From the NCBI GenBank assembly GCA_021820465.1, contig JAKADP010000005.1, forward strand, positions 9,661 through 73,660: a stretch of 64,000 nucleotides of DNA, read 5' to 3'. Position numbers and translations under genes: made by a program. This stretch comes from Bacillota bacterium (lineage in GTDB: Bacteria > Bacillota > Sulfobacillia > Sulfobacillales > JAIMBI01). Under the pieces are notes generated by a model. That model was not told the DNA's origin. It was given only the letters and a program-made list of their open reading frames with translations, and made no database searches. Shown piece after piece: positions 19,107 through 60,826 of the stretch (its first letter is position 1; each line of letters begins with the position of its first letter).

Positions 19107-19370
19107 GCCGCAGCGGCCACGCCGCTCCCTCCTGCCGTAAGCTGTCTCTATCGAGCTGACGCTGTCGTCGACTGTCATTCCGTGAACGCCTGCGAGAGCC
19201 GCATGGTTACGTGAAGTGTACCACGGGGGGCCGGGCTCGACATCCCGACGTCCGAGCGGATCGCCGGGTGGCTGCCACCAGCGGGTTGGCCGATACCTCC
19301 TATGGGATTGCGTGCGGCCGGGAGTCCTTTTATGCTGGACCAACAAGCTTACGGGGCAAGGTGGTGGCCG

Positions 19371-19823
19371 ATGCAGCTGGCAGAGGTGTATCGGCGACTG
19401 GAGGCCGGGTCCCACCGGCTGACGCCGCAGCGGCACCTGCTCCTGCGCACGCTGGCGGGTCACGGGGACACACCCCTGTCTGCCGAGGAGCTGCAGGCGC
19501 GGGCGGAGGCGGAGCATCGCCTCCGGGTGGGACTGGCCACCGTATACCGCACGCTGGACCTCTTGGAGTCCTTAAACGTCGTGGCCCGAATTGAAGACCG
19601 CGGGGCCCAGGACACGTCCGCCCGGTTTGTCTGGGCAGGTGAGGACGGAGCCGGTCAGCCCAAGCGCGTGTGTGTGCGCTGTGGGGAGGTGGGCCCCATT
19701 CCGGCGGACTGGACCGCAAGCGTCTGGCAGCGGCTCAAGGACGAGCAGGGCTTCGAGGTTGTGGACCAGGAGGTGCGCGTCTATGGCGTGTGCCAACCGT
19801 GCCGGGGATCCACACTGGAGTAG
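19371..19823 (+). CDS. Fur-family transcriptional regulator (atypical: structural CxxC pairs only)
   Basis: A winged-helix region (RLTPQRHLLL...LSAEEL...VGLATVYRTLDLL) and two CxxC pairs (CVRCG, CQPC). ATG at 19371 follows AAGGTGGTGG. Confidence 0.85.
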   Translation: MQLAEVYRRLEAGSHRLTPQRHLLLRTLAGHGDTPLSAEELQARAEAEHRLRVGLATVYRTLDLLESLNVVARIEDRGAQDTSARFVWAGEDGAGQPKRVCVRCGEVGPIPADWTASVWQRLKDEQGFEVVDQEVRVYGVCQPCRGSTLE

Positions 19824-19833
19824 GAGGCGTGAC

Positions 19834-20193
19834 ATGATTCGCCTATACCACTACCGCGGGTGAAGCACGTGCGTGAGGGCGAAAGCGTGGCTTTCGCAGG
19901 CGTTGGCCGACCAGAAGCTGTCGGCCGCTTTGCTGGAGGAGCGGGATCTCATCCGCGACCCCCTGTCGGCCCACGAGGTGCACGACCTGGTGCGCCGGGC
20001 CGGCGGCATCGAGGCGGTGCTGGCGACCCGAAGCCCGGCGTACCGGGCGCGGGTGAGCGCCGTCGCCGATGAGGCCGGCTGGCTCTCAGCCATGGCCGAA
20101 GAGCCGCGGCTCATCCGCCGACCCATTCTGGAGACGGATCGGGGCATGGCGGTGGGCTTCTCCGAGGCCAATTGGCGGCGGCTGCTGGACTGA
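19834..20193 (+). CDS. ArsC/Spx-family thioredoxin-fold protein with in-frame TGA (19861-19863) at the first Cys of CxxC: candidate selenoprotein
   Basis: TAGGAGG (19821-19827), 6 nt, then ATG at 19834. The translation is MIRLYHYRG-[TGA]-STCVRAKAWLSQALADQ... and is open to 20193. It aligns with the Spx/ArsC N-terminus (M..LY....C..CRKA..WL). The track shows only the fragment starting at GTG 19873. Confidence 0.7.
19879..19897 (+). promoter_or_regulatory. SECIS-like hairpin
   Basis: GCGAAAGC-GUG-GCUUUCGC is an 8-bp perfect stem that starts 15 nt after the TGA. Confidence 0.55.
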
Positions 20194-20465
20194 CGGCCCC
20201 GCCCCGCGGCGGCCGGTCCCGCCACACCGTGCGCTCTACGACGGCCGCGAGCCTTCCAACACGGATGCCCCTGGCACTATCTTCCGCGGCAGCCGCCAGC
20301 CCCGCAGAGACGCCGTGCCGCGCAAAGCACGCGCCCTGCCTGGAGCATCTCCTGGAGCCGGGGACAAGCGGAAGCCGTCGGTCAGCGCCCGATCCATTGA
20401 CACGCCGCTATACTTAGAGAAGTGACTGGGGTTCTGAAGACGACGACAGCAAGGGGGTGGTGCGC

Positions 20466-21470
20466 ATGATGACGGAGCCGCTGACCCGACCCGCGCTGCA
20501 GGACAAGTTTGGACGGGTCGTCCACAAGCTGCGCATTTCCCTGACGGATCGGTGCAACTTTCGGTGTGTGTACTGCATGCCCGAGGATGCGGAGTTTCTT
20601 CCCCACGACGAGTTGCTGACCGCTGACGAGATTGTGCGGGTAGCCGGGCTATTTGCCGAAATGGGCGCGGACACGATTCGGCTTACCGGCGGGGAGCCGC
20701 TGATGCGGCCCGACGTTGTGGACATCACCCGGCGGCTGAAGCAGCTTCCCGGGGTGCATCGGGTGTCGATGACCACCAATGGGTTCATGCTACCGCGCCT
20801 GGCCGCTCCCTTGGTCCAGGCTGGCTTGGACGGCGTGAACGTGAGCCTCGACACCCTGGATCCGGTGCGGTTTCAAGTGCTGGCGCGCCGCCGCTACCTC
20901 AAGGAGGTGCTGGCGGGCATCCAGGCGGCCGAGGCGGCGGGGCTCACCCCGGTCAAAATCAACACGGTCGTCATGCGCGGTGTCAACGACAGCGAGATTG
21001 GGGAGTTTCTGGGGTGGGCCCGCGACACAGGGCACGTGGTCCGGTTCATTGAGTTTATGCCGCTGGACGCCGACAACATCTGGCAGCGGCAGACGGTGGT
21101 GACGCTGGCCGAAATTTTGGAGGTGGCGCGGAGCATCGGGCCGGTGGACGAAGTGGGAGAGGACAAGGCCAGCCCGGCGCGCCTGTATCGCTTTCGCGAC
21201 GGCCGCGGCACCTTCGGGGTAATCGCGTCGGTCTCGGAGCCGTTCTGTGCGGACTGCGACCGAGTGCGGCTCACGGCCGAAGGTCGGATTCGCAACTGCC
21301 TGTTTGCCACCGACGAGACCGACCTGCGGGCGCTGCTGCGCAACGGAGCAGACGACGAAGCGCTCGTCCAGCGGATGCGCGACGCGGTCGCCGAGAAGTG
21401 GGCCGGCCATCTCATTGCCCAGCCAGGCTTTGTCAAGCCGGAGCGCACCATGCACCGGATCGGCGGCTGA
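20466..21470 (+). CDS. moaA: GTP 3',8-cyclase (molybdenum cofactor biosynthesis protein A)
   Basis: The radical-SAM motif is LRISLTDRCNFRCVYCMP, and the C-terminal cluster Cys motif is CADCDRVRLTAEG. ATG at 20466 follows AAGGGGGTGG. The track start is GTG at 20457. Confidence 0.9.
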   Translation: MMTEPLTRPALQDKFGRVVHKLRISLTDRCNFRCVYCMPEDAEFLPHDELLTADEIVRVAGLFAEMGADTIRLTGGEPLMRPDVVDITRRLKQLPGVHRVSMTTNGFMLPRLAAPLVQAGLDGVNVSLDTLDPVRFQVLARRRYLKEVLAGIQAAEAAGLTPVKINTVVMRGVNDSEIGEFLGWARDTGHVVRFIEFMPLDADNIWQRQTVVTLAEILEVARSIGPVDEVGEDKASPARLYRFRDGRGTFGVIASVSEPFCADCDRVRLTAEGRIRNCLFATDETDLRALLRNGADDEALVQRMRDAVAEKWAGHLIAQPGFVKPERTMHRIGG

Positions 21471-32046: not shown

Positions 32047-32430
32047 CTACAACAGGAACTGCTCCAGCGCCGTGCGGGCAGACTCGCTCGCCTGGGCATG
32101 TTCCCACAGCGCGGTGGTCAGCTCGTGCAGCCAGTGGTCGAGCGTCGCCGGCTCGGTCTTGAGGGCGATGCCGCGGACCACCTTCGCGATGCGATACGTG
32201 AACTCGCCATGCGCGTGCTCGGCCGTGAACGTTTGATCGCCCAGCGTCACCGTGATGTGCACCACCGGCCGCTGGGCTTTCTGGAACGGAAAGCCGCCGT
32301 GGCGCAACACGACCGCCCCGGCGGGCAGCGCCTGCGTCAACTTATCCGCCAGCACTTCGTGGAACGTGCTGAGGTCGCTGCTGGCGGAGCGCAGCGCTCC
32401 GGCCAGGGTGTCGAATGACCAGTCCTCCAT
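32047..32430 (-). CDS. hypothetical protein (operon member, unknown family)
   Basis: ATG at 32430 follows AGGAGG with a 6-nt spacer (track start 32445). The composition looks coding, and I recognise no motif. Confidence 0.6.
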   Translation of the reverse strand: MEDWSFDTLAGALRSASSDLSTFHEVLADKLTQALPAGAVVLRHGGFPFQKAQRPVVHITVTLGDQTFTAEHAHGEFTYRIAKVVRGIALKTEPATLDHWLHELTTALWEHAQASESARTALEQFLL

Positions 32431-32448
32431 GTCTGCCTCCTGCATCCC

Positions 32449-32694
32449 TTAACGGCCGAGCCGCCGCTCCATCTCCTGGCGATTGAACCCGATGATCAGG
32501 TCCTCCCGCCCGTCCGGCCACTGCAGCACGGTGGTGGGCGTGGACCGGGATCCCAGCGCCATCAGCTGGTCAATGTACTCCGGATTGTCGGGCAGATTCA
32601 GCTCGGTGAACACATAACCCGCTTGAGAAAGCCACGCTTTCTCCGTTTCGCAGGCACCTCACCCCGGTTGGGTGAATACCCGGATGACTGGCAT
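32449..32694 (-). CDS. glutaredoxin/NrdH-like protein with in-frame TGA (complement of 32659-32661) at the first Cys of CxxC: candidate selenoprotein
   Basis: My own translation is MPVIRVFTQPG-[TGA]-GACETEKAWLSQAGYVFTELNLPDNPEYIDQLMALGSRSTPTTVLQWPDGREDLIIGFNRQEMERRLGR. This is the glutaredoxin fold pattern (beta1, CxxC, a cis-Pro region TP, then GF). Both halves are below the track size cut-off. Confidence 0.7.
32625..32643 (-). promoter_or_regulatory. SECIS-like hairpin
   Basis: GAGAAAGC-GUG-GCUUUCUC is an 8-bp perfect stem that starts 15 nt after the TGA. The geometry is the same as at 19879-19897. Confidence 0.55.
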
Positions 32695-33022
32695 CGTCGT
32701 CTCGCTGGCCACCTATCTCACATCTTTTCTGTTCCAATTCGACTTGGCCGAATGCGCGGAGCCGCCAATCTTCTGCCTCTCGGCAGCGCCGTGGCTCTAT
32801 TATACGATAGTGGGGGGCGCCGGCCGCCCGGGTCCACGCGTCTCTGATCTTCGGAAAGTGCCAGGATGGCCGAACATGCCGTTCGCTCCGGAGCAGGACC
32901 CGGGCCGGGCGGCGCGAAGCCGGGCGATGGGAGCCGGAGATGCGGCGGCCGGGGCCGCTCCCGCACCCACGGGGAGAGCGCGGAGTCCAGCGAGCACGAC
33001 GAGAGCGAGGAGCGTGACACAT

Positions 33023-43010: not shown

Positions 43011-43484
43011 ATGGAGCCCCGCATCATCCCCGAGTTTCAAACCGAAGACATTCACGGCACGCCGTTTCGGGCCTCGGATTTGGTGGCGCGCGCGCCCGTG
43101 CTGGTGGTGATGCTGCGCGGGCTGTTCTGACCGTACTGCCGGCGGCAGCTCGTGCAGCTGCGCGACCAGTACGCGGCCTTGCGGGCGGCGGGCATCCAGG
43201 TGGTGGCTATCGGGCCGGACCGCCCGCAGGCGCTCCGCGCCCACTTTGAGAAGGAGCGCCTGCCCTTCGAGGCGATTGCGGACCCCTCCCAGCAGGTGCT
43301 GAAGGCGCTGGGCCAGCAGTATCGGTGGTACACGGTGGGGCTCCTGCCCGCCATGCTGGCCATTGCCCCGTCGGGGGCGGTCGTGTGGCAGCACTATGCG
43401 AAGAGTCCTCAGGATCTCCCCAGCCTGACCGAGGCCGCGGCGGCCCTGGGCCGGCGGCTGGACCATCAGGGCCAGGACGCGTAG
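43011..43484 (+). CDS. AhpC/TSA (peroxiredoxin-like) thioredoxin-fold protein with in-frame TGA (43128-43130) at the first Cys of CxxC: candidate selenoprotein
   Basis: GGGGAGG, 7 nt, then ATG at 43011. The translation is MEPRIIPEFQTEDIHGTPFRASDLVARAPVLVVMLRGLF-[TGA]-PYCRRQLVQLRDQYAALRAAGIQVVAIGPD... This matches the family pattern vvLvFyRG.WCPyC..qL. The track lists only 43152..43484. Confidence 0.7.
43145..43161 (+). promoter_or_regulatory. SECIS-like hairpin
   Basis: GCAGCU-CGUGC-AGCUGC is a 6-bp stem that starts 14 nt after the TGA, with GUG in the loop. Confidence 0.4.
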
Positions 43485-48053: not shown

Positions 48054-48090
48054 CATCGGGCCGCTGGGGCGCAAGCTCGTCCGGCTGAAG

Positions 48091-48142
48091 CCCCGCATGC
48101 GAGAGAGGCGCACCCCAAGGTGCGCCTCTCTCGCATGCGGGG
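48091..48142. terminator. perfect 24-bp inverted repeat between convergent genes (bidirectional terminator candidate)
   Basis: CCCCGCATGCGAGAGAGGCGCACC - CCAA - GGTGCGCCTCTCTCGCATGCGGGG. It ends 2 nt before the ptrB stop. Confidence 0.7.
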
Positions 48143-48143
48143 C

Positions 48144-60686: not shown

Positions 60687-60826
60687 CTCATCGCCTCCTC
60701 GCGGCGGGCCGGTTCATTGGTTCCTAGAATATGGGAATATGTGGCGGGCGAACCCTCTGGGCGCACTTTGTTTGCAGGTTCTTCATGTTTGAGCGGCGTC
60801 GGGAGGTTAGAATACGCCCGGGAGGG

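What the first reader, a model, noticed from the sequence alone, without database searches (positions are those of the whole stretch)
19861..19897. Same-geometry hairpins after two of the TGAs, differing by a compensatory base pair
The ArsC-like gene has UGA-N15-GCGAAAGC-GUG-GCUUUCGC (19879-19897). The Grx-like gene has UGA-N15-GAGAAAGC-GUG-GCUUUCUC (complement of 32625-32643). Spacing, stem length and loop are identical. The only stem difference is C:G versus A:U at the second pair. The 3' change is a synonymous Ser codon (TCG versus TCT) that restores pairing with a non-synonymous 5' change (GCG Ala versus GAG Glu). That pattern is what selection on RNA structure predicts. The third gene (43145-43161) has UGA-N14-GCAGCU-CGUGC-AGCUGC, again with GUG in the apical loop. 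In all three, the first G of that GUG lies 25-27 nt from the U of UGA, within the range described for bacterial SECIS elements. Caveat: both 8-bp stems encode the family-conserved peptide KAWLSQ, so some of the similarity is protein-driven.
Basis: seen in the sequence. Interest (0 to 1): 0.75.

Follow-up and report, generated by a model that had tools for sequence, protein, structure and literature searches.

The report
SECIS hairpins in three selenoprotein genes
Three small redox genes in this window each have an in-frame UGA followed by a short RNA hairpin that tells the ribosome to insert selenocysteine instead of stopping; the signal is real and conserved, but it is an ordinary example of a mechanism and of gene families known for about 20 years.

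Summary
The ArsC-like gene has UGA-N15-GCGAAAGC-GUG-GCUUUCGC (19861-19897). The Grx-like gene has UGA-N15-GAGAAAGC-GUG-GCUUUCUC (32661-32625, minus strand). The Prx-like gene has UGA-N14-GCAGCU-CGUGC-AGCUGC (43128-43161).

The interpretation as bacterial SECIS elements is supported.
- In 60 distinct Sec-form ArsC-like genes from metagenomes, the same 8-bp helix is paired in 83% of cells (38-57% in slid controls), with many double changes.
- 41 of the 44 well-paired copies have a G(U/G)N triloop.
- All 12 non-Sec homologues examined (8 Cys ArsC-like, 4 Grx-like) lack the hairpin, including one that keeps the peptide EKAWL.
- The stem uses rare codons (CTT 4%, TCT 6%, AAA 14%), so the peptide alone does not produce it.
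- KAWL is conserved across the family, but the following S/L-Q occurs only in Sec forms and is probably imposed by the RNA.
- A covariance model built only from ArsC-like sites finds the Grx-like sites (25-34 bits).

The Prx-like hairpin is weaker evidence, because the peptide QLVQL encodes most of it automatically. Its closing pair does covary among orthologues.

All three families (ArsC-like UxxC, Grx-like UxxC, Prx-like UxxC) and the bSECIS consensus are published. This is a new member of a known kind. Public gene calls truncate these genes.

The parts
19835..20193 (+). ArsC/Spx-family selenoprotein gene (119 codons, USTC motif). The start ATG follows a GGAGG ribosome-binding site and lies 11 nt after the stop of the Fur-family gene. 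The gene's own stop codon is also TGA (20191-20193).
   Evidence: sequence; Pfam ArsC, residues 5-116, 48.8 bits; public gene calls start at GTG 19873, i.e. they are truncated.
19861..19863 (+). In-frame TGA read as selenocysteine. It aligns with the first Cys of CxxC in Cys homologues.
19879..19897 (+). SECIS hairpin GCGAAAGC-GUG-GCUUUCGC (8 bp, 3-nt loop, -10.1 kcal/mol), 15 nt after the UGA. It encodes A-K-A-W-L-S-Q.
32449..32694 (-). Glutaredoxin/NrdH-like selenoprotein gene (81 codons from ATG 32694, UGAC motif). An in-frame GTG at 32712-32710 may be the true start.
32659..32661 (-). In-frame TGA read as selenocysteine, conserved in 4 orthologues from Bacillota MAGs.
32625..32643 (-). SECIS hairpin GAGAAAGC-GUG-GCUUUCUC (8 bp, 3-nt loop, -8.8 kcal/mol), 15 nt after the UGA. 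It encodes E-K-A-W-L-S-Q.
   Evidence: CM hit of 31.9 bits, E 1.7e-7, from a model that did not contain this site.
43011..43484 (+). AhpC/TSA (Prx-like, SelL-related) selenoprotein gene (157 codons, UPYC motif).
   Evidence: Public calls start at GTG 43152 (truncated).
43128..43130 (+). In-frame TGA read as selenocysteine, conserved in 5 orthologues.
43145..43161 (+). Candidate SECIS hairpin GCAGCU-CGUGC-AGCUGC (6 bp, 5-nt loop, -7.5 kcal/mol). In orthologues it is a 7-bp stem with a GUG or GUC triloop.
19302..19823 (+). Fur-family regulator gene immediately upstream of the ArsC-like gene (context; the same synteny holds in Sec and Cys orthologues).

Best explanation
The three hairpins are bacterial selenocysteine insertion sequences (bSECIS) lying inside the coding regions of three thioredoxin-fold redox genes: ArsC/Spx-like, Grx/NrdH-like and AhpC/TSA-like. 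Each gene has U-x-x-C in place of C-x-x-C.

Inferred mechanism. When the ribosome reaches the UGA, the hairpin that begins 14-15 nt downstream sits at the mRNA entrance. Its apical loop (G then U) and upper stem are bound by the C-terminal domain of the elongation factor SelB, which carries Sec-tRNA(Sec). SelB delivers the tRNA to the A site, so UGA is read as Sec rather than as stop. The ArsC-like mRNA ends with an ordinary UGA stop, so the recoding depends on local context.

Why the ArsC-like and Grx-like hairpins look alike. Both are built on the same homologous helix-alpha1 segment (x-K-A-W-L), which supplies the 5' arm and the loop. The 3' arm then forces the Leu codon CUU, a Ser (or Leu) codon and a codon starting with C. 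That is why Sec forms read L-S/L-Q and non-Sec forms do not.

Shown here:
- in-frame TGA at the Cys position, and TGA conservation among orthologues;
- hairpin conservation with covariation;
- absence of the hairpin from non-Sec homologues;
- use of rare codons in the stem.

Inferred, not shown:
- SelB binding;
- actual Sec insertion;
- presence of selA/B/C/D elsewhere in the genome.
For: Sequence and geometry.

Protein families: ArsC, Glutaredoxin and AhpC-TSA domains span the TGA. NCBIfam lists related '(seleno)protein' models.

ArsC-like family.
- About 70 of the 80 related metagenome loci carry TGA at this codon.
- On 60 distinct Sec-form sites the 8-bp helix is 83% paired, against 38-57% when slid. 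It has 66 double-change cells against 18-36, and a covariation score of 0.431 against at most 0.19. None of 500 shuffles reach it.
- 44 of 60 have at least 7/8 pairs, and 41 of those have a G-first triloop: GUU, GGC, GUC or GUG.
- Close orthologues: L109 has the identical hairpin at 57% protein identity. L107 has a G:C to A:U double change, with LSQ becoming LLQ.

Grx-like family. All 4 orthologues keep TGA and the hairpin. The only change is A to G, giving G:U, while flanking codons diverge.

Non-Sec homologues lack the hairpin.
- Eight Cys ArsC-like forms pair at 0-5 of 8 positions.
- Grx-like CAAS pairs at 1/8, and QAAC (which still encodes EKAWL) at 3/8.
- L[S/L]Q occurs in 40 of 60 Sec forms and in 0 of 8 Cys forms.

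Codon usage. CTT is 4% of Leu codons, TCT 5.7% of Ser and AAA 14% of Lys. The chance of the stem given the peptide is about 2e-3 to 5e-3 per gene.

Covariance model. The CM built from ArsC-like sites finds the window's Grx-like site at 31.9 bits. It finds all Grx-like and ArsC-like Sec orthologues at 25-58 bits and none of the non-Sec loci.

Prx-like. TGA is conserved in 6 orthologues. The closing pair is C-G, G-C or C.C. Cys homologues read R-H-L/M rather than R-Q-L.

Consensus. All published bSECIS criteria are met. Hairpin energies are -10.1, -8.8 and -7.5 kcal/mol.
Against: - No Sec machinery (tRNA-Sec, selA/B/D) lies in the 64-kb window, and the rest of the genome could not be examined.
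- No experiment of any kind was possible.
- Single-sequence folding energies are not better than shuffles for two of the three sites.
- The Prx-like stem is about 12% expected from the peptide plus codon bias. Its energy is exactly at the -7.5 threshold, and its loop-closing C.C does not pair in the window.
- 16 of 60 ArsC-like Sec forms do not use this register and seem to have other hairpins. The geometry is therefore common but not universal.
- No Rfam family matches.
Confidence: 0.87

Rival explanations
1. The hairpins are by-products of a conserved peptide (KAWLSQ, or QLVQL) and have no RNA-level function. Read-through, if any, does not depend on them.
For: - K-A-W-L is conserved across ArsC/Spx and Grx-like proteins, including Cys forms: P0020 KAKAWL, L082 VKAWL, P0024 EKAWL.
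- The Prx-like stem is the palindrome CAGCTG repeated. It is about 12% expected from the peptide and codon bias.
Against: - Non-Sec homologues with the same KAWL peptide do not form the hairpin.
- The stem needs rare codons, CTT at 4% and TCT at 5.7% of their amino acids. These codons are kept in every orthologue while the flanks diverge.
- There are many compensatory double changes across 60 sequences.
- S/L-Q after KAWL is found only in Sec forms.
Confidence: 0.05
2. The in-frame TGAs are real stops, pseudogene lesions or assembly errors. The genes are the shorter ORFs called in public databases, and the hairpins are incidental.
For: - Public gene calls start after the TGA: 106, 110 and 103 aa products.
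- One relative is annotated simply as 'arsenate reductase', 106 aa.
Against: - The TGA is conserved at the same codon in dozens of independent assemblies and about 70 metagenome relatives.
- It aligns with the catalytic Cys of CxxC.
- Homology and the Pfam domains extend upstream of the TGA.
- Ribosome-binding sites precede the upstream ATGs.
- The truncated ORFs would lack the redox motif.
Confidence: 0.03
3. UGA is reassigned genome-wide (for example to Trp or Gly) or is generally leaky, so no specific signal is needed.
For: None found. It is considered only because UGA reassignment exists in some bacteria.
Against: - The ArsC-like gene itself ends with TGA.
- TGA bounds many ORFs in the window.
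- The recoded TGAs sit only at Cys positions of redox motifs and are always followed by the hairpin.
Confidence: 0.02
4. This rival concerns origin, not function. The near-identity of the ArsC-like and Grx-like hairpins would reflect transfer or gene conversion of a 'UxxC + SECIS' cassette between the two genes, rather than independent shaping of homologous helices.
For: - 17 of 19 hairpin bases are identical, and the frame and spacing are the same.
- The ArsC-derived CM scores the Grx-like site at 31.9 bits.
- 'SQAG' follows the stem in both Grx-like genes and many ArsC-like genes.
Against: - Outside the hairpin the two 48-nt segments are poorly similar.
- Non-Sec Grx-like homologues already encode ACEAEKAWL, so the 5' arm is native to that family.
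- Only the S-Q codons differ between Sec and non-Sec forms.
Confidence: 0.1

Closest known systems
Bacterial SECIS consensus (bSECISearch model of Zhang and Gladyshev 2005, as summarised in PMC13188914)
   Same: It is a stem-loop in the coding region just 3' of the Sec-UGA. The consensus asks for a 3-9 nt apical loop, a 4-16 bp upper stem, G (then G/U) in the first two loop positions, 16-37 nt between UGA and loop, and MFE at or below -7.5 kcal/mol. All of these are met: spacings are 23, 23 and 20 nt, loops are GUG, GUG and CGUGC, and energies are -10.1, -8.8 and -7.5.
   Different: Nothing essential differs. The triloop is at the small end of the allowed loop size, and the Prx-like hairpin sits exactly on the energy threshold.
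E. coli fdhF / fdnG SECIS and the Moorella thermoacetica fdhA SECIS-SelB complex (experimentally characterised; recalled from my own knowledge)
   Same: In these systems SelB recognises a G-U in the apical loop of a hairpin at a fixed distance 3' of the UGA. The hairpin lies in the reading frame, so it also constrains the protein sequence.
   Different: The E. coli element has a 4-nt-type loop, a bulged U, and the loop G at about nt 23 from the U of UGA. Here there is a perfect 8-bp stem with no bulge, a 3-nt loop, and the loop G at nt 27 (25 in the Prx-like gene). No sequence similarity exists, and no Rfam model matches.
Marine 'Arsenate reductase 2' (cd03032, UxxC), 'Grx-like' (UxxC) and 'Prx-like 1-3' (UxxC) selenoprotein families of the Sargasso Sea and GOS surveys (PMC1088965, PMC2398784)
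   Same: They have the same Pfam families and the same UxxC motif, and predicted bSECIS hairpins with a conserved loop G were reported for them. The roughly 70 marine relatives I retrieved show the same UGA-N15-8bp-triloop geometry.
   Different: The window's genes come from a high-G+C, Thermaerobacter-like Bacillota lineage and are only 27-53% identical to the marine sequences. The window protein scores far below the cut-off of NCBIfam's ArsC selenoprotein model NF041106 (28 against 85 bits).

Membership tests
Bacterial SECIS (bSECIS consensus) | [quoted passage not shown] | tested here: met
   the stems start 15, 15 and 14 nt after the UGA.
Bacterial SECIS (bSECIS consensus) | Apical loop of 3-9 nt on an upper stem of 4-16 bp | tested here: met
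   Loop/stem are 3 nt/8 bp, 3 nt/8 bp and 5 nt/6 bp (3 nt/7 bp in orthologues L102, L103, L106).; criteria.
Bacterial SECIS (bSECIS consensus) | G in one of the first two loop positions, usually followed by G or U | tested here: met
   Loops are GUG, GUG and CGUGC. In the ArsC-like family, 41 of 44 well-paired hairpins have G(U/G)N loops.
Bacterial SECIS (bSECIS consensus) | 16-37 nt between the UGA and the apical loop | tested here: met
   The spacings are 23, 23 and 20 nt.
Bacterial SECIS (bSECIS consensus) | Hairpin MFE at or below -7.5 kcal/mol | tested here: met
   Energies are -10.1, -8.8 and -7.5 kcal/mol. The third is exactly at the limit.
Bacterial SECIS (bSECIS consensus) | Structure conserved with compensatory changes in Sec orthologues and absent from Cys orthologues | tested here: met
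   for ArsC-like and Grx-like. For Prx-like only 6 close orthologues were available, and no Cys-form DNA could be fetched.
Bacterial SECIS (bSECIS consensus) | Binds SelB and directs Sec insertion at the UGA | not testable with these tools
   This needs a SelB gel shift, 75Se labelling or mass spectrometry, and reporter fusions.
Bacterial Sec-decoding trait | The genome encodes selA, selB, selC (tRNA-Sec) and selD | not testable with these tools
   There is no tRNA in the 64-kb window and no Rfam hit. The rest of the genome is not available.
Selenoprotein (Sec/Cys-pair criterion) | The in-frame TGA aligns with a conserved catalytic Cys in homologues, and homology continues on both sides | tested here: met
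   ArsC-like: CSTC/CTTC in P0016, P0017, L016, L018 and others. Prx-like: CPFC/CPYC in full-length homologues. Grx-like: homologues have CAAS, but others have Q at this position. Pfam domains span the TGA.
NCBIfam NF041106 'ArsC family (seleno)protein' (ArsC_rel_Se_1) | Score at or above the curated cut-off of 85 bits | tested here: not met
   The score is 28.4 bits. The window protein is an ArsC/Spx-family selenoprotein but not a member of that particular subfamily.
Any curated Rfam family | Match at gathering score, or any suggestive sub-threshold match to a SECIS model | tested here: not met
   Searches gave only chance-level hits to unrelated families.

The most novel reading that the evidence does not exclude
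UGA-N15 / 8-bp stem / G(U/G)N triloop may be a discrete SECIS class that can be recognised by sequence and structure. It would be shared by two different thioredoxin-fold families (ArsC/Spx-like and Grx/NrdH-like) from marine bacteria to thermophilic Bacillota. Its 3' arm would have imposed the residues L-S/L-Q on helix alpha1 of the proteins, so RNA structure would be dictating protein sequence convergently in two families. It might have spread as a UxxC+SECIS cassette. No Rfam model covers it, and one small covariance model (R1) would re-annotate hundreds of truncated 'arsenate reductase' and 'glutaredoxin' gene calls.
Probability: 0.35. Interest if true: 0.45.

Novelty: new member of a known kind. 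Interest (0 to 1): 0.3.

Why it matters
Practical value. These three genes and their orthologues are truncated or missed in public gene calls, for example the 106-aa 'arsenate reductase [Thermaerobacter sp.]'. Recognising the SECIS restores the catalytic UxxC motif. It also marks this uncultured high-G+C Bacillota lineage as a user of selenocysteine in thiol-redox defence. The ArsC-like gene sits in an apparent operon behind a Fur/PerR-type regulator.

Conceptual value. The data set is a clean illustration of a coding-region RNA structure constraining both codon choice and amino-acid sequence: S/L-Q is present only in Sec forms. It does not change what is known about bacterial Sec insertion.

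Tried and rejected
1. Rfam at gathering threshold on the whole window, and at E up to 10 on each site, matched no SECIS or other meaningful family.
2. Single-sequence folding against shuffles is not informative in 68% G+C DNA.
3. Scanning the window with the covariance model for further sites found only the two known ones. The third hit (60751-60785, minus strand, 15 bits) lacks the hairpin and lies in the leader of a regulator gene.
4. Two heuristic scans for further in-frame TGA genes in the window found no convincing additional selenoprotein. The first scan was too noisy to use.
5. I tested a second, lower helix (cols 4-12 with 40-48, i.e. the S-T-C codons pairing with the A-G-V codons). 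It is only 59% paired. It is a feature of a marine subgroup, not of the family, and is weak in the window.
6. Gene conversion between the two window genes is not supported outside the hairpin.
I re-ran it with the truncated product P0025.
The Prx hairpin therefore stays less well tested.

Full report
**What is in the sequence**

- **ArsC-like gene, plus strand.** It starts at ATG 19835, which follows a GGAGG ribosome-binding site and lies 11 nt after the stop of a Fur-family gene. It reads M-I-R-L-Y-H-Y-R-G-TGA-S-T-C-V-R-A-K-A-W-L-S-Q. The layout is TGA 19861-19863, then 15 nt, then GCGAAAGC (19879-19886), GTG, GCTTTCGC (19890-19897).
- **Grx-like gene, minus strand.** It reads ...F-T-Q-P-G-TGA-G-A-C-E-T-E-K-A-W-L-S-Q. 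The layout is TGA 32661-32659, then 15 nt, then GAGAAAGC (32643-32636), GTG, GCTTTCTC (32632-32625).
- **Prx-like gene, plus strand (ATG 43011).** It reads ...R-G-L-F-TGA-P-Y-C-R-R-Q-L-V-Q-L. The layout is TGA 43128-43130, then 14 nt, then GCAGCT / CGTGC / AGCTGC (43145-43161).

Pfam places the three proteins in ArsC (residues 5-116), Glutaredoxin and AhpC-TSA, with the domains spanning the TGA. NCBIfam's nearest models include several '(seleno)protein' families, all below their cut-offs.

The single stem difference between the first two hairpins is C:G versus A:U at pair 2.

**Is it more than chance?**

The window (68% G+C) contains only eight perfect hairpins of at least 8 bp with a 3-nt loop per strand. 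Two of those eight lie exactly 15 nt after an in-frame TGA within a UxxC motif.

Single-sequence folding energies are not exceptional against dinucleotide shuffles (z = +0.29, -1.64, 0.00). Position and comparative evidence therefore have to carry the argument.

**Comparative evidence, ArsC-like**
- Protein-database homologues are almost all truncated at the same GTG just after the TGA. This is the signature of Sec genes mis-called by gene finders.
- A metagenome scan returned 80 relatives at 27-53% identity. About 70 of them have TGA at the homologous codon (U-[ST]-[ST]-C) and six have TGC/TGT.
- The downstream 48 nt of 60 distinct Sec forms align without gaps.
- The helix at columns 19-26 with 30-37 is paired in 83.1% of cells, against 38.5-56.7% when the 3' arm is slid by 1-3 columns. 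It has 66 double-change cells against 18-36, and a covariation score of 0.431 against at most 0.189. None of 500 column shuffles reach it.
- Individual pairs switch among C:G/U:A/U:G, G:C/A:U/G:U, A:U/C:G/G:U and C:G/A:U/G:U.
- Forty-four of the 60 have at least 7/8 pairs in this register, and 41 of those have a G-first triloop: GUU 18, GGC 8, GUC 8, GUG 7.
- The other 16 appear to use other hairpins, for example a GCCC-GUC-GGGC stem four bases further 5'.
- Close, syntenic orthologues (Fur - ArsC-like - MoaA) behave the same way. L109 (57% identical protein) has the identical hairpin. L107 (69% identical) has GCAAAAGC-GUG-GCUUUUGC, a G:C to A:U double change made by a synonymous GCG to GCA and a non-synonymous TCG (Ser) to TTG (Leu).

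**Comparative evidence, Grx-like**

Four orthologues in Bacillota MAGs (59-90% identity) all keep the TGA and the hairpin. The only change in the 19 nt is A to G in two of them, which turns an A:U into a G:U. Neighbouring codons diverge freely.

Non-Sec homologues do not carry the hairpin.
- Eight Cys-form ArsC-like genes pair at 0-5 of the 8 positions. They include P0016, which is syntenic behind the same Fur gene.
- The Grx-like CAAS form pairs at 1/8.
- The QAAC form still encodes E-K-A-W-L and pairs at 3/8.

**Protein-driven or RNA-driven?**

K-A-W-L is a family feature of helix alpha1. It is present in Cys forms and in Spx. It supplies the 5' arm and the loop.

The 3' arm must then read (TG)G-CUU-UC[G/U]-C. 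This requires:
- Leu = CUU, which is 4.1% of Leu codons in this window's genes;
- Ser = UCU (5.7%) or UCG (27.8%);
- Lys = AAA (14%, or AAG with a wobble pair);
- a next codon that begins with C.

Given the peptide, genomic codon usage would produce the stem with a probability of about 2e-3 to 5e-3 per gene. In addition, L-[S/L]-Q follows the motif in 40 of 60 Sec forms and in 0 of 8 Cys forms.

'SQ' is conserved because of the RNA, not the other way round.

**Covariance model**

A model built from the 60 ArsC-like sites gave these results.
- It finds the window's Grx-like site, which was not in the model, at 31.9 bits (E 1.7e-7). It finds nothing else credible in 64 kb.
- It finds every Sec-form ArsC-like and Grx-like orthologue at 25-58 bits.
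- It finds none of the non-Sec loci and none of the Prx-like loci.

**Prx-like hairpin**

The TGA is conserved in all six orthologues. The stem GCAGCU/AGCUGC is invariant. The closing position is C-G in L102 and L103 and G-C in L106, each giving a 7-bp stem with a GUG or GUC triloop. It is C.C in the window, L104 and L105.

The stem is the self-complementary CAGCTG repeated by the peptide Q-L-x-Q-L with the commonest codons. I estimate about a 12% chance of getting it from the peptide alone.

Most homologues in the representative library are truncated at the same place, so this family is mostly Sec-containing. The full-length Cys forms read R-[QRA]-H-[LM]-x-x-L instead of R-R-Q-L-V-Q-L. That hints that the first Gln is RNA-driven.

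I could not fetch their DNA, so this element is probable but less well tested.

**Mechanism and comparison with what is known**

All three hairpins satisfy the published bSECIS consensus: a 3-9 nt loop, a 4-16 bp stem, G then G/U at the start of the loop, 16-37 nt between UGA and loop, and MFE at or below -7.5 kcal/mol. Here the spacings are 23, 23 and 20 nt, and the energies are -10.1, -8.8 and -7.5 kcal/mol.

The ArsC-like gene ends in a normal TGA stop, so the recoding depends on context.

The inferred mechanism is the classical one: SelB carrying Sec-tRNA(Sec) binds the apical hairpin and decodes the UGA. SelB binding and Sec insertion are not shown here, and the window contains no tRNA-Sec or sel genes.

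The three selenoprotein families were described in the Sargasso Sea and GOS surveys, each with predicted SECIS hairpins:
- arsenate reductase type 2, cd03032, UxxC;
- Grx-like, UxxC;
- Prx-like, UxxC.

No Rfam family covers them.

**Verdict**

These are genuine bacterial SECIS elements in new members of known selenoprotein families. They come from a Thermaerobacter-like high-G+C Bacillota lineage whose public annotations truncate these genes.

Novelty is low. The most interesting residue is the demonstration that one SECIS geometry is shared by two Trx-fold families and dictates the S/L-Q residues of their Sec forms.

Noticed in passing
window 19302-21470; L009, L096, L107, L109: The ArsC-like gene lies 11 nt behind a Fur-family (PerR-like?) regulator gene and ahead of a MoaA-type radical-SAM gene. 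The Fur - ArsC-like order holds in both Sec-form and Cys-form orthologues, which suggests a peroxide- or metal-responsive operon.
   Followed up: partly
window 32692-32712 (minus strand); L001 and L002 around 3001: The ATG taken as the Grx-like start is ATA in orthologues L001 and L002. An in-frame GTG 18 nt upstream (32712-32710) is conserved in the window and L001-L003, so it may be the true start (6 extra codons).
   Followed up: partly
P0021-P0024; L098, L101: The closest non-Sec relatives of the Grx-like protein do not have CxxC. Two have C-A-A-S (monothiol) and two have Gln (CAG) at the Sec position (Q-x-A-C). That is an unusual replacement for Sec.
   Followed up: partly
window 32047-32445 (minus strand); L098 910-1290, L101 881-1264: A gene of about 126-132 codons with no Pfam match always follows the Grx-like gene, in Sec and non-Sec loci alike. 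It is a conserved partner of unknown function.
   Followed up: no
window 48090-48143: A perfect 25-bp inverted repeat with a 4-nt loop (GCCCCGCATGCGAGAGAGGCGCACC-CCAA-...) lies exactly between two convergent ORFs. It has no T-run. It is probably a bidirectional terminator or an mRNA-stabilising hairpin.
   Followed up: partly
L017, L019, L021, L039, L041, L060, L068 and others (alignment A3, cols 4-12 with 40-48): Many marine ArsC-like Sec genes have a second, lower helix. In it the S-T-C codons right after the UGA pair with the A-G-V codons after the hairpin, up to 9 bp. It is only 59% paired family-wide and weak in the window's genes.
   Followed up: yes
L035, L036, L042, L053, L062, L067, L079, L089, L091, L092: A subgroup of ArsC-like Sec genes (peptides ...RRALN..., ...RVALD...) lacks the common register. 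It has other hairpins instead, for example GCCC-GUC-GGGC four bases closer to the UGA. This points to more than one SECIS solution within one family.
   Followed up: no
window 43132-43138 with 43168-43174: CGUACUG and CAGUACG could form a lower stem around the Prx-like hairpin (seen in the MFE fold, and reflected in generic miRNA-precursor hits in Rfam). Five of the 7 pairs are invariant in orthologues. The second pair is broken by synonymous changes.
   Followed up: partly
window 60751-60785 (minus strand): The covariance model gave a weak hit (15 bits) on TGAAGAACCTGC. It has no hairpin and lies in the leader of a 152-codon gene that looks like a DtxR/MntR-type regulator (by eye only). I treat it as a chance match.
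   Followed up: yes
P0001, P0025, P0181 (public protein records): Public gene calls for all three genes and their orthologues begin downstream of the TGA, giving 106, 110 and 103 aa products. One is named 'arsenate reductase [Thermaerobacter sp.]'. The catalytic motif is therefore missing from the databases.
   Followed up: yes
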